A stretch of 15,134 bases of DNA from a virus (Duplodnaviria > Heunggongvirae > Uroviricota > Caudoviricetes), in IMG/VR virus record IMGVR_UViG_2648501400_000006; one strand, given 5' to 3'. Both the position numbers and the translations under genes were made by a program. Of this stretch, positions 2,576 through 15,134 are shown one piece after another; the stretch's first letter is position 1, and every line of letters starts with the position of its first letter. The notes below the pieces were generated by a model that did no database searches, was not told the origin of the DNA, and was given only the letters and a program-made list of their open reading frames with translations.

Positions 2576-3295
2576 ATGCCAACACCAAATCCCCTGGAGC
2601 CGGTAAAAGGTGCCGGTACCACCCTGTGGGTTTACAACGGCAAGGGTGACGCCTATGCAAACCCGTTGTCAGACGATGACTGGCAGCGACTGGCTAAGGT
2701 GAAGGATCTGACGCCGGGCGAGATGACGGCAGAACCCTACGATGATAACTACCTGGATGATGAAGACGCGGACTGGACCGCGACCGGGCAGGGACAGAAA
2801 TCTGCAGGAGATACCAGTTTTACACTGGCCTGGAAACCGGGAGAAGAAGGTCAGAAAGGGCTTATAGGCTGGTTTGAAAGCGGGGATGTGCGGGCCTATA
2901 AAATCCGTTTTCCGAACGGCACGGTGGATGTGTTTCGTGGCTGGATCAGCAGTATCGGTAAGGCAGTGACGGCGAAAGAAGTGATCACCCGAACAGTGAA
3001 AGTGACCAACGTGGGCAAACCTTCCGTAGCGGAAGAACGCAGCAAAATTACGCCGGCCACTGCAATTAAGGTGACACCGACATCCGGTACCGTGGAAAAA
3101 GGAAAAACAACCACCCTGACGGTTTCTTTTGAGCCGGAAAGTGCAACCGACAAGACGTTCAGAGCGGTTTCCGCCGATCCGTCAAAAGCAACCATTACTG
3201 TGAAAGATATGACAATCACGGTAAACGGCGTGAAGACAGGAAAAGTGCAGTATCCCCGTGATGACCGGAAATGGTCAGTTCGCCACAGTAGCTGA
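2576..3295 (+). CDS. V: Major tail tube protein V-like; last ~13 codons out of the ancestral frame (apparent 1-nt insertion near 3251)
   Basis: GAGGA RBS at 2567-2571. 239-aa ORF matches lambda gpV ([68 protein letters not shown]…[42 protein letters not shown]…) up to …TITVNGV.TGKV, then ends [14 protein letters not shown]. The shifted frame 3249-3329 encodes [26 protein letters not shown], which resembles the lambda gpV C-terminus (…[21 protein letters not shown]). Confidence 0.85.
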
Positions 3296-3342
3296 AGTCA
3301 CCGTTACTGAAGCGGGCGCTGCAGGGTAAACGGAGGTAATAC

Positions 3343-3774
3343 ATGTTTCTGAAAACAGAACAATTTGAATATAACGGTGTGTCCGTCACGCTTTCCGAAT
3401 TGTCTGCGCTGCAGCGTATTGAGCATCTTGCCCTCCTGAAACGGCGTGCAGAACAGGCAGAATCCAGCGGCAACCTGCAGGTAAGCGTGGAAGATCTCGT
3501 CAGAACCGGCGCGTTTCTGGTGGCGATGTCCCTGTGGCATAACCATCCGCAGAAAACGGCATCACCGTCAATGAATGAGGCCGTGATGCAGATCGAACAG
3601 GAAGTCCTCACCACCTGGCCTGCGGATGCCATTGCCCGGGCGGAAGATGTGGTGTTGCGTCTGTCCGGGATGAGCGGGCCTGTTCATGCGGATACGGACA
3701 GCACCGAAGTGGCGAAAAATAACGCGCTGACTGATGATGATTTTTCTGCGGGAAAGTCTTCGACGGCGAGCTGA
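3343..3774 (+). CDS. G: Tail assembly chaperone G
   Basis: GGAGG RBS at 3329-3335; 143 aa MFLKTE.FE.NGV.VTLSELSALQRIEHLAL.KR.AEQAES…TGAFLVAMSLWHNHPQKT…SMNEAV.QIEQEVLTTWP… matches lambda gpG. Confidence 0.9.
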   Translation: MFLKTEQFEYNGVSVTLSELSALQRIEHLALLKRRAEQAESSGNLQVSVEDLVRTGAFLVAMSLWHNHPQKTASPSMNEAVMQIEQEVLTTWPADAIARAEDVVLRLSGMSGPVHADTDSTEVAKNNALTDDDFSAGKSSTAS

Positions 3775-4214
3775 ATTTTGCCCTCAGACTGGCGCGTGAG
3801 ATGGGGAGGCCTGACTGGCGCGCCATGCTTGCCGGGATGACATCCACCGAATATGCCGACTGGCGACATTTTTACCGCACGCATTATTTTCACGATACCC
3901 AACTGGATATGCATTTTTCCGGGCTGACGTACGCCGTACTCAGCCTGTTTTTTTGCGATCCGGATATGCATCCCTCTGATTTCAGTCTGCTTGCCCCCCG
4001 GCATGAGGAAGAGCAGACGGAGAGGCCGGATGAGGAAAAAATGCTGATGCAGAAAGCGGCAGGACTTGCCGGAGGCGTCCGGTTCGGTGGGGACGGAGGG
4101 CGCGAGATTTTATCGTCTGCGGATGTGGCGGATGTCAGCGAGGATGATGCCGCATTAATGATGGCTTCAGCGGGGATTCCCGGAGGTGTGAGATATGTCC
4201 CAGCCGGTTGGTGA
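3343..4214 (+). CDS. T: Tail assembly chaperone G-T fusion made by programmed -1 ribosomal frameshift at 3750-3756
   Basis: The T-frame (frame 0) has no own start/RBS and is open from the slippery site to TGA 4212-4214; its translation (…MGRPDWRAMLAGM.STEYADW..FY.THYFHD..LDMHFSGLTY.VLSLFF.DPDMHP.DFSLL…LMQKAAGLAGGVRFG…) matches lambda gpT. Slippery heptamer G-GGA-AAG sits in the G zero frame 19 nt before the G stop. Confidence 0.8.
3750..3756 (+). promoter_or_regulatory. -1 programmed ribosomal frameshift slippery heptamer GGGAAAG (G/G-T)
   Basis: Sequence GCG GGA AAG with GGA and AAG as in-frame G codons (codon start 3751 is in frame with the G ATG at 3343); same heptamer and relative position as the lambda G-T frameshift site. 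Confidence 0.75.
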
Positions 4215-6775
4215 TCTTGTTATTGACCTGAGTCTGGATGCGGTCCGTTTCGATGAGCAGATGAGCCGGGTAAGGCGTCATTTTTCAGGACTGGAGACCG
4301 ACGCCAGAAAAACCGCCAGTGCTGTTGAACAGAACCTGAGCCGCCAGGCGCTGGCTGCACAAAAAGCCGGGATTTCCGTCGGGCAGTATAAAGCGGCCAT
4401 GCGAACCCTGCCCGCACAGTTTACGGATATCGCCACGCAGCTTGCCGGTGGTCAGAATCCCTGGCTGATCCTGCTGCAACAGGGCGGTCAGGTGAAGGAC
4501 TCCTTCGGCGGGATGATCCCCATGTTCAGGGGGCTTGCCGGTGCGATCACCCTGCCGATGGTCGGGGTCACCTCGCTGGCGGTGGCGACAGGTGCGCTGG
4601 CGTACGCCTGGTACCAGGGAGATTCCACGCTTTCAGCGTTTAATAAAACCCTGGTTCTTTCCGGTAATCAGTCCGGACTGACTGCCGATCGCATGCTGAC
4701 GCTCTCAAGAGCCGGACAGGCAGCAGGGCTGACGTTTAACCAGGCGAGAGAGTCACTGGCAGCCCTGGTGAATGCCGGTGTGCGTGGTGGTGAACAGTTT
4801 GATGCCATCAACCAGAGTGTCGCGCGTTTTGCGTCTGCATCCGGTGTGGAGGTGGACAAAGTCGCAGAAGCCTTCGGAAAACTGACCACCGACCCGACGT
4901 CGGGACTGATGGCGATGGCGCGCCAGTTCCGTAACGTGACGGCAGAGCAGATTGCGTATGTTGCACAGCTGCAGCGTTCCGGAGACGAGGCCGGGGCATT
5001 ACAGGCGGCGAACGATATCGCCACGAAAGGCTTTGATGAGCAGACCCGTCGCCTGAAAGAAAACATGGGAACACTGGAGACCTGGGCGGATAAAACAGGG
5101 AAGGCATTCAAATCGATGTGGGATGCCATTCTGGATATCGGTCGTCCTGAGTCCTCAGCGGATATGCTCGCCAGTGCACAGAAGGCATTTGATGAGGCGG
5201 ATAAAAAATGGCAGTGGTACCAGAGCCGGAGCCAGCGCCGCGGAAAAACCGCCTCTTTCCGGGCCAACCTTCAGGGCGCATGGAATGACCGGGAAAATGC
5301 CCGTCTGGGGCTGGCAGCGGCCACGCTGCAGTCGGATATGGAAAAAGCCGGTGAACTGGCCGCCAGGGACCGGGCCGAACGGGACGCATCACAGCTGAAG
5401 TATACCGGAGAGGCGCAGAAGGCGTATGAGCGTCTGCTGACGCCGCTGGAGAAATATACCGCCCGTCAGGAAGAACTGAATAAGGCACTGAAAGACGGGA
5501 AAATCCTGCAGGCAGATTACAACACGCTGATGGCGGCGGCGAAAAAGGACTATGAAGCGACGCTGAAAAAGCCGAAACAGTCAGGAGTCAAAGTGTCAGC
5601 CGGCGAGCGTCAGGAAGACCAGTGCGCATGCTGCCCTGCTGACGCTTCAAACAGAACTCCGGACGCTGGAAAAACACACCGGAGCGAATGAGAAAATCAG
5701 CCAGCAGCGTCGCGATTTATGGAAAGCGGAAAATCAGTATGCGGTCCTGAAAGAGGCAGCCACGAAACGGCAGTTATCTGAGCAGGAAAAATCCCTGCTG
5801 GCCCATGAGAAAGAGACGCTGGAGTACAAACGCCAGCTGGCTGAGCTGGGAGACAAAGTTGAACACCAGAAACGGCTGAATCAGCTGGCACAGCAGGCTG
5901 CGCGGTTTGAACAGCAGCAGAGCGCGAAGCAGGCGGCAATCAGCGCAAAAGCCCGCGGACTCACCGACCGTCAGGCGCAGCGGGAGTCGGAAGAGCAGCG
6001 CCTTCGTGACGTGTACGGTGATAATCCGGATGCGCTGGCGAAGGCCACATCTGCACTGAAGAACACCTGGTCTGCGGAGGAGCAGCTTCGTGGAAGCTGG
6101 ATGGCCGGTCTGAAGTCCGGCTGGGGCGAGTGGGCAGAAAGTGCGACGGACAGTTTTTCGCAGGTTAAAAGCGTGGCCACGCAGACCTTTGACGGTATTG
6201 CACAGAATATGGCAGCGATGCTGACCGGCAGCGAACAGAACTGGCGTGGTTTCACCCGTTCTGTGCTCTCCATGCTGACAGAGATTTTTCTGAAGCAGGC
6301 GATGGTGGGGATAGTCGGGAGTATCGGCAGCGCCATTGGCGGTGCTTTCGGTGGTGGTGCGTCTGCCTCCACGGGGACGGCCATTCAGGCTGCGGCGGCG
6401 AACTTCCATTTCGCGACCGGGGGATTTACGGGGACGGGGGGTAAATATGAACCTGCGGGAATTGTTCATCGCGGGGAGTTTGTCTTCACGAAGGAGGCAA
6501 CCAGCCGGATTGGCGTCGGCAACCTGTATCGTCTGATGCGCGGGTATGCGGAAGGTGGTTATGTGGGCGGTGCCGGAAGTCCGGCGCAGATGCGGCGGGC
6601 GGAAGGCATTAGTTTTAATCAGAACAATCACGTGGTGATTCAGAACGACGGTATCAACGGACAGGCAGGGCCGCAGCTGATGAAAGCGGTGTATGACATG
6701 GCCCGCAAGGGGGCGCAGGATGAGATTCAGGCGCAGATGCGTGATGGCGGCGTATTTTCCGGAGGCAGGCGATGA
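4195..6775 (+). pseudogene. H: Tail tape-measure protein H-like, split by an apparent +1 frameshift near 5619-5620 (N-part frame 1: 4195-5691; C-part frame 2: about 5567-6775)
   Basis: GGAGGTG RBS at 4179-4185. The 4195 ORF matches lambda gpH from the N-terminus (…VGDLV.DLSLDA.RFDEQM.RVRRHFSG…GISVGQYKAAMR.LPAQFTD.ATQLAGGQ.PWLILLQQGGQVKDSFGGMIPMFRGLAGAITLPMVG…) through …KKPKQS.VKVSAG.RQED, then reads QCACCPADASNRTPDAGKTHRSE*. Frame 2 from 5621 reads SAHAALLTLQ.ELRTLEKH.GANEKISQQRRDLWKAENQ… and continues through …AGIVHRGEFVFTKEATSRIGVGNLYRLMRGYA.GGYVG… to TGA 6773-6775, matching the lambda gpH continuation. Removing one C at 5619/5620 (GAAGAC[C]AGTGCG) restores one ORF of ~859 aa. Frame 2 has a stop at 5564-5566, so the switch must lie in 5567-5691. 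Confidence 0.75.
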
Positions 6776-7101
6776 AAACCTTTCGCTGGAAAGTGAAGCC
6801 GGATATGGAGGTGAACTCGCAGCCGTCGGTGCGTGAAGTGCGTTTTGGTGACGGGTATTCGCAGCGTATGGCTGCGGGGCTGAATGCTGACCTGAAAACA
6901 TACCGTGTGACGCTTTCCGTGACCCGGGAGGAGGCCCGACATTTGGAGGCGTTCCTGGCAGAGCACGGTGGCTGGAAGGCGTTTCTGTGGACACCGCCTT
7001 ATGCCTGGCGGCAGATAAAGGTGACCTGTGCCGCCTGGTCATCACGGGTTCGCATGCTGCGGGTTGAATTCAGTGCCGAGTTTAAGCAGGTGGTGAACTG
7101 A
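6772..7101 (+). CDS. M: Tail tip assembly protein M-like
   Basis: 109 aa, the lambda gpM size; GGAGG RBS at 6756-6760; ATGA overlap with the H stop; positioned between H and L. Confidence 0.9.
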   Translation: MKTFRWKVKPDMEVNSQPSVREVRFGDGYSQRMAAGLNADLKTYRVTLSVTREEARHLEAFLAEHGGWKAFLWTPPYAWRQIKVTCAAWSSRVRMLRVEFSAEFKQVVN

Positions 7102-7799
7102 TGCAGGATATTCACGAAGAAAGTCTGAACGAGTCGGTTAAATCAGAGCAGTCACCGCGGGTGGTACTCTGGGAAATCGACCTGACGGTACAGGGTGGTG
7201 AGCGGTATTTTTTCTGCAATGAGCTGAATGAAAAAGGGGAGGCGGTTACCTGGCAGGGGCGGCAATATCAGGCATACCCGATTGACGGCAGTGGCTTTGA
7301 GATGAACGGGAAGGGCAGCAGTGCCAGACCGTCGCTGACGGTGTCCAATCTGTTTGGTCTGGTCACCGGGATGGCGGAGGACCTGCAGAGCCTGGTGGGG
7401 GCCACGGTGGTCCGCCGCCGGGTGTATGCCCGTTTTCTGGATGCGGTGAATTTTGTGGCAGGCAATCCGGAAGCGGACCCGGAGCAGGAGCTGAGCGACC
7501 GCTGGGTGGTGGAGCAGATGTCAGAGCTGACGGCCATGACGGCCTCGTTTGTGCTGGCGACACCGACCGAGACGGACGGGGCGCTGTTTCCTGGTCGCAT
7601 CATGCTGGCGAACACCTGTATGTGGGATTACCGGGGAGATGAATGCGGGTATAACGGTCCTGCGGTGGCGGATGAGTTCGACAACCCCACCACGGATATC
7701 CGTAAGGACAGATGCAGCAAGTGCATGCGCGGGTGTGAGATGCGCGGCATGGTGGCTAATTTTGGCGGTTTCCTTTCCATTAACAAACTTTCGCAGTAA
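7101..7799 (+). CDS. L: Tail tip protein L-like
   Basis: 232 aa, the lambda gpL size; TGATG overlap with the M stop; conserved Cys-rich C-terminus (…CMWDYRGDECGYNGPAVADEFDNPT.DI.KD.CSKC…) as I recall for gpL. Confidence 0.9.
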   Translation: MQDIHEESLNESVKSEQSPRVVLWEIDLTVQGGERYFFCNELNEKGEAVTWQGRQYQAYPIDGSGFEMNGKGSSARPSLTVSNLFGLVTGMAEDLQSLVGATVVRRRVYARFLDAVNFVAGNPEADPEQELSDRWVVEQMSELTAMTASFVLATPTETDGALFPGRIMLANTCMWDYRGDECGYNGPAVADEFDNPTTDIRKDRCSKCMRGCEMRGMVANFGGFLSINKLSQ

Positions 7800-7804
7800 A
7801 TCCA

Positions 7805-8483
7805 ATGACACAGACAGAATCAGCGATTCTGGCGCATGCCCGGCGGTGTGTGCCTGCGGAGTCGTGCGGCTTCGTGGTGAGAACGCCGGAGGGGGAGCGG
7901 TATATCCCTTGTGTGAATATCTCTGCAGAGCCGGAGGCGTATTTTCGTATTGCACCGGAAGACTGGCTGCGGGCAGAGATGCAGGGGGAGATTGTGGCAC
8001 TGGTCCACAGTCATCCCGGTGGTCTGCCGGGGGGAAATTCATAAATTCCGCTGTGTACCACATCTGACAGGACGGCGCTTTGAGCACGGGGTGACGGACT
8101 GTTACACGCTGTTCCGGGATGCCTACCATCTGGCGGGAATTGATATGCCGGATTTTGAGCGTGAGGATGACTGGTGGCGCAACGGTCAGAACCTTTACCT
8201 GGACAATATGGCGGTCACCGGCTTTTACCGGGTGCCCCTGTCCTCTGCACAGGCGGGCGATATCCTGCTGTGCTGCTTTGGCGCATCGGTGGCCAATCAT
8301 GCCGCCATTTACTGCGGCAACGGTGAACTGCTTCACCATCTGCCTGAACAACTGAGTAAACGGGAGAGGTATTCCGAAAAATGGCAACGACGAACGCATT
8401 CTGTCTGGCGTCACCGCCACTGGCACGCATCTGCCTTCACGGGGATTTGCAACGATTTGGCCGCCGCCTCAGCCTGTATGTGA
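7805..8483 (+). pseudogene. K: Tail tip assembly protein K-like (MPN/JAMM + NlpC/P60), disrupted: N-part frame 2 (7805-8044, stop TAA 8042-8044), C-part frame 0 (about 8028-8483)
   Basis: 7805 ORF: MTQTESAILAHARRC.PAESCGFVV.TPEGERY.PCVNIS.EPEA…EDWL.AEMQGEIVALVHSHPGGLP then GGNS*. Frame 0 from ~8028: RGEIHKFRCVPHLTGRRFEHGVTDCYTLFRDAYHLAGI.MPDF.REDDWWRNGQNLYLDN…LLCCFG.SV.NHAAIYCG.GELLHH.PEQLSKRERY..KWQRRTHS.WRHR.W.ASAFTGI.NDL.AAS… ending TGA 8481-8483 and overlapping I by 103 nt. The HxH of a JAMM motif is present but the expected downstream S-x-x-D is missing; the junction coincides with a G6 run (8029-8034). From memory of lambda K, about 22 codons are absent, implying a ~65-bp out-of-frame deletion. 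Confidence 0.65.
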
Positions 8484-9061
8484 ACACGGCAGCGGAAGCC
8501 ATCCGGGCGCTGTCGTTACAGGTGCCGGGATTCCGCCGTCAGATGAACGAAGGCTGGTACCAGATACGTATTCGCGGTGAGGACACGGCACCGGAGGCGG
8601 TGTACGCCCGTCTTCACGAACCTCTGGGTGAGGGGGCGGTCATCCACATTGTGCCGCGACTGGCCGGAGCCGGAAAGGGCGGACTGCAGATTGTGCTGGG
8701 GGCGGCGGCCATCGTGGGGTCGTTCTTCACTGCCGGGGCATCAATGGCGTTATGGGGTTCAGCCCTGGCAGCCGGCGGTTTTTCTGCCACCACGATGCTG
8801 TTTTCACTGGGGGCCGGCATGATTCTGGGTGGTGTGGCTCAGATGCTTGCCCCGAAGGCCAAAGTACCGGAGTACAAAAGCACGGATAACGGCAGACAGA
8901 ACACGTATTTTTCGTCACTGGACAACATGATTGCCCAGGGGAACCCGATGCCGGTGCCTTACGGGGAAATGCTGGTTGGCTCCCGCCGTATATCCCAGGA
9001 CATCAGTACCCGTGATGAAGGCGGTGACGGGAAGGTGGTGGTTATCGGGCGGCAGGCATAA
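8381..9061 (+). CDS. I: Tail tip assembly protein I-like
   Basis: 226 aa; …LASP..ARICL.GDLQRFGRR…AEAIRAL..Q.P.FR…GWYQ.RI.G.D…GAVIHIVPR.AGA..GG.QIVLGAAAI.GSFFTAGA…FSLGA.M.LGGVAQMLAPKA..P…TDNG.QNTYFSSLDNM.AQGN..PV.YGEM.VGSR..SQ.IST.DEG…VVVIGR matches lambda gpI; starts 103 nt before the K stop. Confidence 0.9.
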   Translation: MATTNAFCLASPPLARICLHGDLQRFGRRLSLYVNTAAEAIRALSLQVPGFRRQMNEGWYQIRIRGEDTAPEAVYARLHEPLGEGAVIHIVPRLAGAGKGGLQIVLGAAAIVGSFFTAGASMALWGSALAAGGFSATTMLFSLGAGMILGGVAQMLAPKAKVPEYKSTDNGRQNTYFSSLDNMIAQGNPMPVPYGEMLVGSRRISQDISTRDEGGDGKVVVIGRQA

Positions 9062-9251: not shown

Positions 9252-9779
9252 TTATTGAATGATGCCGCAGGCCATTCTCGCACCACCACCGCCCAGGGAC
9301 TCCGGATGGTCATGATGGTTATCACCGCCAGCATGAAGCATGAGAGAACGCCCTTTAATCTCTTTTAATGAGTTCAGTCTCGGGGCCAGGACCGGGTAGT
9401 TCGCTTTTCCGTCATGCGTCACGAACAGCGCAGGGAGGTCGCCCAGGTGTCCATCCGGAGACCAGGGGCCAAGATGTTTGCCGGTGTTTTTCGGGTCAAA
9501 GTGACCGCCAGCCGATAATGCTGCGACCGGTTTTCCGTCTTTCAGTGCCGGGGCGCAATTTCCTTTTTCGTGCACATGAAAACCATGAATGCCTTCAGAC
9601 AGAGAGTGAAGGGCTGGTGTGAACAGCAGACCGTAGGGGGTCTCCTGAATGGTTATTTTTCCAATGCTGACTTCTTTTCCGTCAGCACTGACAAGGTTCA
9701 TTGGGACTTCCTGTTCTGCTGCGTATCCGCATGATGCTGCTGTCAGCATGGCAATAGCAGCAATGATTTTACATTTCAT
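9252..9779 (-). CDS. sodC: Periplasmic Cu,Zn superoxide dismutase (prophage-encoded SodC)
   Basis: Minus-strand ORF; chosen start is the ATG at 9777-9779 ([20 protein letters not shown]… signal-peptide-like N-terminus) with GAGGA RBS 4 nt upstream. Translation contains hallmark Cu,Zn-SOD motifs (…[22 protein letters not shown]…AGGHFDP..TGKH.GP…[14 protein letters not shown]…APRL.SL.EIKG.SLM.H.GGDN..D.P..LGGGGAR.ACGIIQ). The longer 9252-10286 ORF in the track is an upstream read-through without support. Confidence 0.9.
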
Positions 9780-13457: not shown

Positions 13458-14081
13458 ATGCGGCATTTATACGCAACGATATTATTGTTTACTACCCTGC
13501 TGGCAGGAATTGCCTTTCCTGCACAGGCTGAAAGCGGACACGGTGCATTTTCCGTGGGATATGCTCAGGTTCACCCGGGCGGCGTACCGGCATTGTCCGG
13601 TACCGGTGCGCGTGCAGGTGATTTAAAAGGGATTAATGTGAAATACCGTTATGAGTTCACGGATCACCTGGGCGGCATTGTCGCGCTGAGTTATGCATCG
13701 GTGAAGAAAAGTGACACGATGAAGACGGGTGAAAATACCTTCCATTATGAAAGCCTGCGCGGTCGTTATGTCAGTCTGATGGCCGGCCCTGTCTGGCAGC
13801 TCAGTGAGCGGGTCAGTCTCTATGGCATGGCCGGGATGGCGTACACCCGCTGGTCTGACAGTGTTCAGGATTACCGGCGTGATGAAGTGAAACCGGGGTA
13901 TGTGAAGGAGACCACCACCGCCAGTGATGGTCATACTGCGCGTCATCTGTCGCCGGCCTGGAATGCCGGGATTCAGTTCAGTCCCGTAGAGACGGTGGTT
14001 ATTGACCTTGCTTATGAAGGTTCCGGCAGTGGCGACTGGCGCACTGACGGTTTCATCGTGGGTGTCGGCTATAAATTCTGA
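13458..14081 (+). CDS. lom: Lom outer-membrane protein (Ail/Lom/PagC family)
   Basis: ATG at 13458 with GAGG RBS (13448-13451); signal peptide MRHLYATILLFTTLLAGIAFPAQA; …GINVKYRYEFTD.LG…MAGP…YEGSGSGDWRTDGFIVGVGYKF matches lambda Lom including the identical C-terminus. The upstream GTG at 13422 lies inside the J terminator and was not chosen. Confidence 0.9.
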   Translation: MRHLYATILLFTTLLAGIAFPAQAESGHGAFSVGYAQVHPGGVPALSGTGARAGDLKGINVKYRYEFTDHLGGIVALSYASVKKSDTMKTGENTFHYESLRGRYVSLMAGPVWQLSERVSLYGMAGMAYTRWSDSVQDYRRDEVKPGYVKETTTASDGHTARHLSPAWNAGIQFSPVETVVIDLAYEGSGSGDWRTDGFIVGVGYKF

Positions 14082-14145: not shown

Positions 14146-15134
14146 ATGGCAGTAAAGATTTCAGGTGTACTGAAAGACGGCACAGGAAAACCGGTACAGA
14201 ACTGCACCATTCAACTGAAAGCCAGACGGACCAGCACCACGGTGGTGGTGAACACGCTGGCCTCAGAAAATCCGGATGAAGCCGGGCGTTACAGCATGGA
14301 CGTTGAGTACGGTCAGTACAGCGTTATTCTGTTGGTGGAAGGGTTCCCGCCGTCACATGCCGGGACCATCACCGTGTATGAAGATTCTCAACCCGGTACG
14401 CTGAATGATTTTCTCGGTGCCATGACGGAGGAGGATGCCCGGCCGGAGGCACTGCGCCGTTTTGAACAGATGGTGGAAGAGGTGGCGCGTCACGCTGAGG
14501 AGGCGAAGAAGAATGCCGGAGAGGCGGAGACGTCAGCGAGGAATGCCGGCATATCAGCCAGTCAGGCAGAAGAGAGCGCTGCAAATGCTGACACTTCAGC
14601 AGGGGAGGCATCGGAGTCAGCCCGGCAGGCGGCAGAAAGTGCAGCCTCAGCAAAGCAGTCAGAGGATGCGTCCTCGTCCTCGGCTTCTGCGGCCGCTCAA
14701 AAAGCCAGTGAGTCATCACAAAGTGCAGCAGAAGCTGAATTGTCAAGAAAGACGGCAGAAAGTGCAGCCGGTAATGCAGCCAGGGATGCAACGACCGCAA
14801 CAGAAAAAGCCCGGGAGTCAGCAGAAAGCGCACAGTCAGCGGAACAAAGCAGGATAGCGGCGGAAGAGGCCGTAAACCGAATCCCCACCGTGGTGGGACC
14901 TCCCGGGCCAAAGGGGGAACAGGGGCCCGCGGGTCCTCAGGGGCCGAAGGGTGATAAGGGAGAGCGCGGTGACACCGGCCCTGTCGGGGCAACCGGCGAA
15001 CGGGGACCGGCAGGTGATGCTGGTCCGGCAGGCCCGCAGGGGCCGAAAGGTGACAGGGGAGAGCGGGGAGAGACCGGTCTGACGGGAAATGCAGGTCCAC
15101 AGGGTCCAAAGGGAGATACCGGTGCGGCAGGCCC
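14146..15134 (+). CDS. stf: Side tail fibre protein Stf-like, 3'-truncated by window edge; carries collagen-like Gly-X-Y repeats
   Basis: Translated by hand (not in the ORF track because no stop lies within the window): [111 protein letters not shown]… is near-identical to the lambda Stf N-terminus; followed by an Ala/Ser/Glu-rich low-complexity segment and, from 14896, [79 protein letters not shown]…. Confidence 0.85.
14896..15134 (+). repeat. Collagen-like triplet repeat (GGN-NNN-NNN)n coding region inside stf
   Basis: At least 26 consecutive Gly-X-Y triplets in frame with stf, continuing to the window end; this also creates the long Pro-rich shadow ORF on the opposite strand (14369-15109). 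Confidence 0.85.

What the first reader, a model, noticed from the sequence alone, without database searches (positions are those of the whole stretch)
8000..8060. Tail assembly gene K disrupted inside its JAMM/MPN motif at a G6 run
The N-terminal K ORF ends at TAA 8042-8044 right after HSHPGGLP, the HxH of a JAMM metalloprotease motif; the expected S-x-x-D is absent. The rest of K (NlpC/P60-like, with the conserved C-terminus overlapping I) continues in another frame from ~8028. The junction coincides with GGGGGG (8029-8034). Compared with my memory of lambda K, about 22 codons are missing, suggesting a ~65-bp out-of-frame deletion rather than a simple indel. Either way K is not an intact single ORF here.
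Basis: partly seen in the sequence, partly recalled or inferred. Interest (0 to 1): 0.55.

Follow-up and report, generated by a model that had tools for sequence, protein, structure and literature searches.

The report
Broken prophage tail gene K
A lambda-like prophage has lost 65 bases from its tail-assembly gene K through a deletion between two 9-base repeats, which leaves an ordinary dead gene in a prophage whose tail genes were already damaged.

Summary
The K reading frame (7805-8044, 79 aa) stops at TAA 8042-8044 just after HSHPGGLP. The rest of K (8028-8483, a complete NlpC/P60 domain) lies in the +1 frame.

Alignment with lambda, BP-4795, an Stx1a phage, four complete E. coli prophages and a sister draft contig shows one lesion: an exact 65-bp deletion. 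In intact alleles the deleted segment is bounded by two copies of TGGTCTGCC spaced 65 bp apart. One copy survives at 8020-8028. This is the signature of a slippage or microhomology deletion.

The deletion removes codons 76-96 plus two bases of codon 97, including the S-E-A-D of the JAMM motif HxHx7SxxD, and shifts the frame.

The G6 run (8029-8034) is also present in intact alleles, so it is not the lesion. Changing its length could restore the frame but not the motif.

I found the junction in none of 5,426 complete E. coli genomes, 50,697 phage records or three contig collections. The window is a whole draft contig (JHSW01000103.1). Its sister contig, JHTA01000061.1, has K intact.

Both contigs share +1 frameshifts in the tape-measure and major-tail genes, so this is a late, private lesion in a prophage that was probably already defective. 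It is an ordinary finding. Read-level confirmation was not possible.

The parts
7805..8044 (+). N-terminal remnant of tail-assembly gene K (79 codons plus TAA). It is a truncated Prok-JAB/MPN domain with the JAMM Glu (E19, GAG 7859-7861) and H68-S69-H70 (8006-8014). The last four residues (GGNS) are out of frame.
8020..8028 (+). Deletion junction. This is the single surviving copy of the 9-bp direct repeat TGGTCTGCC. Intact alleles have two copies 65 bp apart, and the 65 bp between them is missing here.
8029..8034 (+). G6 run. It is also present in intact K alleles, so it did not cause the disruption.
8042..8044 (+). Premature TAA stop reached after the frameshift.
8028..8483 (+). C-terminal remainder of K in the +1 frame. 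It holds a complete NlpC/P60 (C40 peptidase) domain, including the conserved Cys context GVTDCYTLF, and ends at TGA 8481-8483. It has no convincing start codon or ribosome-binding site of its own.
8381..9061 (+). Tail-assembly gene I (Lambda_tail_I). The ORF is open from ATG 8381, the lambda-style start. PGAP starts I of relatives at GTG, equivalent to window 8480, which overlaps the K stop (GTGA).
7101..7799 (+). Minor tail gene L, intact, immediately upstream of K.
5623..5623 (+). Context: an extra T that frameshifts the tape-measure gene. The result is 4195-5691 (498 aa), with the rest open in another frame to 6775. The gene is 859 aa in relatives. The sister contig L009 shares this insertion.
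3251..3251 (+). Context: an extra T that frameshifts the 3' end of the V-like major tail gene (2576-3295, 239 aa, against 250 aa in relatives). The sister contig L009 shares this insertion.

Best explanation
Gene K of a lambda-like prophage is the JAB/MPN plus NlpC/P60 tail-tip assembly protein that PGAP labels 'C40 family peptidase'. Here it has been inactivated by a 65-bp deletion between two copies of the 9-bp direct repeat TGGTCTGCC. I infer that the deletion arose by replication slippage or another RecA-independent misalignment between short direct repeats. It removes codons 76-96 plus two bases of codon 97 (WLSEADRRLQIKSALSWWLVC). That stretch contains the Ser and the zinc-binding Asp of the JAMM motif and the last third of the JAB domain. 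The deletion also shifts the frame, so translation stops after 79 residues. The NlpC/P60 half is left untranslated. Translation of I may also suffer, because in relatives its GTG start overlaps the K stop. That effect is inferred. gpK is required for lambda tail assembly, so this prophage could not make infectious tails from its own K. The lesion is young and private to this draft genome. It sits in a tail module that probably already carried frameshifts in the tape-measure and major-tail genes. This is ordinary prophage decay.
For: Exact 65-bp gap against lambda, BP-4795 and Stx1a_10012, against four complete E. coli prophages and against the sister draft contig. Intact alleles have TGGTCTGCC twice with 65-bp spacing, which equals the deletion length. 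Domain truncation is shown, and loss of the motif HSHPGGLPWLSEAD. All 60 best E. coli hits are 744-bp intact genes annotated 'C40 family peptidase'. The junction 45-mer has no match in 5,426 complete E. coli genomes or 50,697 phage records. The junction pattern is absent from the metagenome, genome and viral contig collections. The exact 79-aa product occurs on this contig only. The sister contig JHTA01000061.1 has an intact 247-aa K, and the K deletion is its only indel difference from the window. Against L006, K differs at 7 synonymous and 1 non-synonymous codons, L at 11 and 0, and M at 7 and 0, so loss of function is recent. Literature: the JAMM motif is EXnHS/THX7SXXD with His and Asp binding zinc (PMC300881); K is JAB plus NlpC/P60 and I is ubiquitin-like (PMC1779556); gpK is required for tail assembly and is not found in virions (PMC12617516, PMC10721106).
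Against: No reads were available, so I could not show that the deletion exists in the organism and not only in the assembly. The source is a draft assembly. Its two other frameshifts are odd: each is a T inserted after CAG, outside any homopolymer. That raises some doubt about sequence quality. The deleted segment has no hairpin that would favour slippage (z -0.65). That does not argue against a repeat-mediated deletion, but it adds nothing to it. Loss of function is inferred from sequence and from lambda genetics. It was not tested.
Confidence: 0.85

Rival explanations
1. The 65-bp gap is an assembly, library or sequencing artefact of a draft genome, and the real prophage has an intact K.
For: The window is an entire 15,134-bp draft contig that ends inside repeated phage genes. 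The junction was found in no other collection searched. The same contig has two unusual single-T insertions. E. coli genomes carry a median of three K-like copies, which complicates short-read assembly.
Against: The shared repeat is only 9 bp, too short to let a k-mer or overlap assembler jump, so reads spanning the junction must have existed. The deletion end points fall exactly on a direct repeat, as expected of a biological slippage event. The rest of K is a normal allele, 99.9% identical to an intact gene. The sister assembly from the neighbouring accession series, probably the same sequencing project, does not show the deletion, so it is not a systematic error of the pipeline.
Confidence: 0.12
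2. The break is a length change in the G6 homopolymer, either phase-variable slippage or a homopolymer sequencing error.
For: The frame change lies next to GGGGGG at 8029-8034. A different K copy (L008, O103:H2 PV16-126) is annotated as frameshifted by a G5-to-G6 change at another G run, equivalent to window ~7890.
Against: Intact alleles have the same G6 run. The only difference from them is the 65-bp gap. Editing the run to G5 or G8 restores one ORF but not the S-x-x-D segment.
Confidence: 0.01
3. The split gene still works. Either ribosomes slip +1 on CCG-GGG-GGA to make an internally deleted K, or they re-initiate (for example at GTG 8019) to make a stand-alone NlpC/P60 protein.
For: The C-terminal frame is +1 of the N-terminal frame, and a G run spans the switch point. 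Iyer et al. (PMC1779556) describe prophage K versions that have only an NlpC/P60 domain.
Against: No relative shows a two-frame arrangement. No candidate start in the C frame has a well-spaced Shine-Dalgarno sequence. The arrangement is private to one contig, so it shows no sign of selection. The tape-measure gene of the same prophage is also frameshifted. Iyer et al. themselves suggest that the NlpC-only versions are degenerate.
Confidence: 0.02

Closest known systems
Bacteriophage lambda gpK (tail tip assembly protein K; TAPK of Iyer et al. 2006; PGAP 'C40 family peptidase'), 247 aa in its full form
   Same: Same position between L and I. Same domain content at the DNA level: Prok-JAB followed by NlpC/P60. 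The DNA aligns directly with lambda K, and the closest intact E. coli allele is 99.9% identical.
   Different: The window lacks 65 bp (codons 76-96 plus two bases of codon 97). It loses the S-x-x-D of the JAMM motif and is split into two frames, so it is a pseudogene of this family and not a working member.
Deletions between short direct repeats in E. coli (replication slippage or RecA-independent misalignment; the classic lacI deletion spectrum, cited from general knowledge)
   Same: One copy of a 9-bp repeat is retained, and the deletion length equals the repeat spacing of 65 bp.
   Different: Nothing unusual. The deleted stretch contains no palindrome or hairpin.
Defective lambdoid prophages of pathogenic E. 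coli that carry scattered frameshifts and deletions in morphogenesis genes (general knowledge)
   Same: Several inactivating lesions lie in one tail module: V-like gene, tape-measure gene and K. The module is a mosaic relative to its sister prophage. An independent K frameshift occurs in another strain.
   Different: This particular K allele was found in no other collection searched.
NlpC/P60-only TAPK versions in some prophages (Iyer et al. 2006, PMC1779556)
   Same: An intact NlpC/P60 coding segment survives without a functional JAB domain.
   Different: Here the NlpC/P60 part has no start codon of its own and is out of frame. It looks like a fresh lesion and not an established architecture.

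Membership tests
Lambda gpK-like tail assembly protein (JAB/MPN + NlpC/P60) | Gene located between minor tail gene L and tail assembly gene I in a lambda-type tail operon | tested here: met
   L is at 7101-7799 (Phage_tail_L, E 5e-92) and I at 8381-9061 (Lambda_tail_I).
Lambda gpK-like tail assembly protein (JAB/MPN + NlpC/P60) | Complete JAB domain with the JAMM motif E-x(n)-H-S/T-H-x7-S-x-x-D | tested here: not met
   E19 and H68-S69-H70 are present, but S-E-A-D is deleted. Prok-JAB profile positions 3-79 of 114 are matched, against 3-113 in intact relatives. Motif definition from PMC300881.
Lambda gpK-like tail assembly protein (JAB/MPN + NlpC/P60) | NlpC/P60 domain fused in frame to the JAB domain in a single ORF of about 247 codons | tested here: not met
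   The NLPC_P60 coding segment is complete (profile 1-105 of 105) but lies in the +1 frame after a TAA stop.
Lambda gpK-like tail assembly protein (JAB/MPN + NlpC/P60) | Required for, and active in, tail tip assembly | not testable with these tools
   The requirement for gpK is taken from the literature (PMC12617516).
Direct-repeat (microhomology) mediated deletion | The ancestral allele carries the same short repeat at both deletion ends, and one copy is retained | tested here: met
   TGGTCTGCC occurs twice in L004, L006, L007, L008 and L009 and once in the window at 8020-8028.
Direct-repeat (microhomology) mediated deletion | Deleted length equals the start-to-start spacing of the repeats | tested here: met
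   The spacing is 65 bp and the deletion is 65 bp.
Homopolymer-tract phase variation or homopolymer sequencing error | The tract length differs between the disrupted and intact alleles | tested here: not met
   G6 is present in the window and in intact alleles.
Programmed ribosomal frameshift or recoding | The two-frame arrangement is conserved among relatives | tested here: not met
   All 60 best E. coli hits and all aligned phages have one 744-bp ORF. The junction is absent from every other collection searched.

The most novel reading that the evidence does not exclude
The split K might not be dead. A +1 ribosomal slip on the G run (CCG-GGG-GGA), or re-initiation near the TAA stop, could produce an NlpC/P60-containing product without a working JAB domain. 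That would be a natural experiment showing which half of gpK tail assembly needs.
Probability: 0.03. Interest if true: 0.3.

Novelty: already known. Interest (0 to 1): 0.1.

Why it matters
It matters little beyond correct annotation. K in this contig should be called a pseudogene, and the prophage should be scored as tail-defective. Its tape-measure and major-tail genes are frameshifted as well. The case is a clean example of a microhomology deletion as a late step in prophage decay. It also offers a defined natural allele that removes the zinc-binding Asp of the JAMM motif, should anyone wish to test what the JAB domain of gpK does.

Tried and rejected
1. G-run indel. Rejected because the G6 run is identical in intact alleles, and editing it restores the frame but not the motif.

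2. Hairpin-assisted slippage. The deleted segment folds no better than shuffled sequence (z -0.65).

3. An 81-nt junction query against E. coli genomes. This was uninformative because the tool joined the two halves across the 65 bp in intact genes. I replaced it with a 45-mer that cannot seed on intact alleles, and that query found no match.

4. 61-nt queries centred on the two extra T's. They gave no match at all, because these patches share no exact 28-mer with any complete genome. I replaced them with 201-nt and 241-nt queries.

5. Literature search for the WGS accessions JHSW and JHTA. Nothing relevant was found, so the strain remains unnamed.

6. Independent starts for the NlpC/P60 half. 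TTG 7992, GTG 8019, GTG 8091 and ATG 8145 lack a well-spaced ribosome-binding site, and ATG 8145 lies downstream of the conserved Cys.

7. Structure prediction and the large protein searches were not run, because the question was settled at the DNA level.

Full report
**Observation**

An ORF starts at ATG 7805, five bases after the stop of gene L (7101-7799). It encodes 79 residues ending ...ALVHSHPGGLPGGNS and stops at TAA 8042-8044. H68-S69-H70 lie at 8006-8014. GGGGGG is at 8029-8034. From 8028 the +1 frame reads RGEIHKFRCVPHLTGRRFEHGVTDCYTLF... through to TGA 8481-8483.

Pfam assigns the N fragment to Prok-JAB (PF14464, E 4e-12), but only over profile positions 3-79 of 114. It assigns the C fragment to NLPC_P60 (PF00877, E 8e-14) over the whole profile, 1-105 of 105. 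The flanking genes are L (Phage_tail_L) and I (Lambda_tail_I). The locus is therefore the lambda K position.

**What the lesion is**

A megablast search of 7805-8483 against phage records returned 265 records. In every listed hit the 679 query bases spread over 744 record bases in two pieces.

The multiple alignment with lambda, BP-4795 and Stx1a_10012 shows one gap of 65 bases. So does a whole-window alignment with the closest complete E. coli prophage, NZ_CP039403, at 98.5% identity. So does a five-way alignment with three further complete prophages.

The missing segment in L004 is TGGTCTGCCCTGGCTGAGCGAGGCCGACCGGCGGCTGCAGATAAAAAGTGCACTGTCCTGGTGGC. It is followed by a second TGGTCTGCC. Intact alleles thus carry a 9-bp direct repeat with a start-to-start spacing of 65 bp. 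The window keeps one copy, at 8020-8028.

Two facts mark this as a deletion by misalignment between short direct repeats. The deletion length equals the repeat spacing, and the end points fall on a 9-bp identity, which a random deletion would show with a chance of about 4^-9. The mechanism itself is inferred from established knowledge of such deletions in E. coli. The deleted stretch has no notable hairpin (z -0.65).

**Role of the G run**

The G6 run is present unchanged in intact alleles (CTGCCGGGGGGAAATTC in Stx1a_10012 and in L004, L006, L007 and L008). It is therefore a neighbour of the junction and not its cause.

Removing one G or adding two G's in silico restores a single ORF. The product then reads HSHPGGLPG(G)EIHKF and still lacks the deleted residues. 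A homopolymer miscount therefore cannot rescue the JAMM motif.

**Effect on the protein**

Intact K is 247 aa. It contains HSHPGGLPWLSEAD at residues 68-81. With E19, this fits the JAMM consensus EXnHS/THX7SXXD, in which the His and Asp residues bind zinc (PMC300881).

The deletion removes codons 76-96 plus two bases of codon 97 (WLSEADRRLQIKSALSWWLVC). That takes out the Ser, the Asp and the last third of the JAB domain, and it shifts the frame. The NlpC/P60 half is intact at the DNA level but has no convincing start of its own. TTG 7992 sits directly against its putative Shine-Dalgarno sequence. GVTDCYTLF contains the conserved Cys of the NlpC/P60 domain. GTG 8019 and GTG 8091 lack a Shine-Dalgarno sequence. 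ATG 8145 lies downstream of that Cys.

In relatives, PGAP starts gene I at a GTG that overlaps the K stop (GTGA; window 8480-8483). Premature termination at 8044 may therefore also reduce I translation. That step is inferred.

**Function from the literature**

Iyer, Burroughs and Aravind described K as JAB plus NlpC/P60 and I as a ubiquitin-like protein. They predicted that K processes I (PMC1779556). gpK is required for tail assembly (PMC12617516) and was not detected in virions (PMC10721106). A K-null prophage is therefore expected to make no functional tails. This rests on lambda genetics and was not tested here.

**How widespread the allele is**

K-like sequence occurs at 14,628 places in 4,333 of 5,426 complete E. 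coli genomes. All 60 best hits are 744-bp genes annotated 'C40 family peptidase', and the best is 99.9% identical.

A 45-mer across the junction was designed so that intact alleles cannot supply a 28-base seed. It has no match in those genomes or in 50,697 phage records. A 30-base junction pattern is absent from the metagenome, species-representative genome and viral contig collections.

The window is the entire contig JHSW01000103.1 of draft assembly GCA_001266175.1, and the exact 79-aa product is recorded only there.

**The sister contig**

The truncated tape-measure product (498 aa) led to a second draft contig, JHTA01000061.1 of GCA_001266255.1. It carries the same tail region. It differs from the window by 328 substitutions and one indel, which is the 65-bp K deletion. 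K there is an intact 247-aa JAB plus NlpC/P60 protein.

The two contigs are mosaics. Window 3113-6300 is nearly identical between them, with 3 substitutions. Other parts differ by several percent, up to about 10% around gene I.

**Other lesions in the tail module**

Relative to the four complete prophages, the window and the sister contig both carry two single-T insertions.
- One is at 3251. It changes the last 26 residues of the V-like major tail protein, giving 239 aa against 250.
- One is at 5623. It truncates the tape-measure protein at 498 of 859 residues, and the downstream frame stays open to 6775.

All listed E. coli hits to these two regions are one base shorter. Substitutions on both sides of each insertion are a mix of synonymous and conservative changes in the reference frame. 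The insertions are therefore late events on a genuine, rare allele, or else systematic errors of that sequencing project. I cannot tell which without reads.

Codon differences from L006 are mostly synonymous: K 7 to 1, L 11 to 0, M 7 to 0, tape measure 35 to 12. The module was under purifying selection until recently.

**Verdict**

The most economical reading is a lambdoid prophage in an early stage of decay. The tape-measure and V frameshifts, if real, are shared and older. The K deletion is the youngest, private event.

The main rival is an assembly or library artefact, which I put at about 0.12. A 9-bp repeat is too short to mislead an assembler, and the sister assembly does not show the gap. 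Only reads or PCR can close this question.

A G-run indel is refuted. A recoding or re-initiation reading has no support from conservation.

It is biologically ordinary: a pseudogene of a known gene, made by a known kind of mutation.

Noticed in passing
window 5623 (tape-measure gene 4195-5691, with its remainder to 6775): An extra T after CAG (ccagTgcgc) frameshifts the tape-measure gene to 498 aa; it is 859 aa in relatives. The sister draft contig L009 shares it. It is absent from four complete prophages and from all listed E. coli hits. It is either real decay or a project-specific systematic error.
   Followed up: partly
window 3251 (V-like major tail gene 2576-3295): A second extra T, also after CAG (gcagTatcc), changes the C-terminal 26 residues of the major tail protein (239 aa against 250). 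L009 shares it. Both insertions sit in patches only about 94% identical to any complete E. coli genome.
   Followed up: partly
L003 (lambda NC_001416, about record positions 14,260-14,275; alignment A1 column ~156): The classical lambda reference (J02459/NC_001416) is one base short in the 5' part of K compared with all relatives and with independently sequenced lambda records (227 against 228 nt). This explains the 149-nt L-K gap and the 199-aa K annotation that starts at an internal Met. Full-length K is 247 aa and includes the JAMM Glu.
   Followed up: partly
L008 7802-8546 (E. coli O103:H2 PV16-126), equivalent to window ~7890: An independent K pseudogene, annotated 'frameshifted' by PGAP. 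It is caused by a G5-to-G6 change in a different G run, so K disruptions recur in E. coli prophages by other routes.
   Followed up: partly
window 3750-3756: GGGAAAG lies near the end of gene G (3343-3774), just before T (3801-4214). This is the lambda-type slippery site for the programmed -1 frameshift that makes the G-T fusion.
   Followed up: no
window 9252-9779 (- strand), 13458-14081 (+): Cargo genes in the tail module: a Cu,Zn superoxide dismutase gene (sodC) on the opposite strand between I and J, and an Ail/Lom outer-membrane protein gene after J. Both are also present in the closest complete prophages.
   Followed up: no
window 8480-8483: In relatives, PGAP starts gene I at a GTG that overlaps the K stop (GTGA), whereas lambda's annotation starts I at the upstream in-frame ATG (window 8381). 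The true start of I, and any translational coupling to K, is unsettled.
   Followed up: no
window 3113-6300 compared with L009 5089-8276: The window and the sister contig are mosaics. This 3.2-kb block differs by 3 substitutions, while flanking parts differ by several percent, up to about 10% around gene I. That suggests recombination between prophages.
   Followed up: partly
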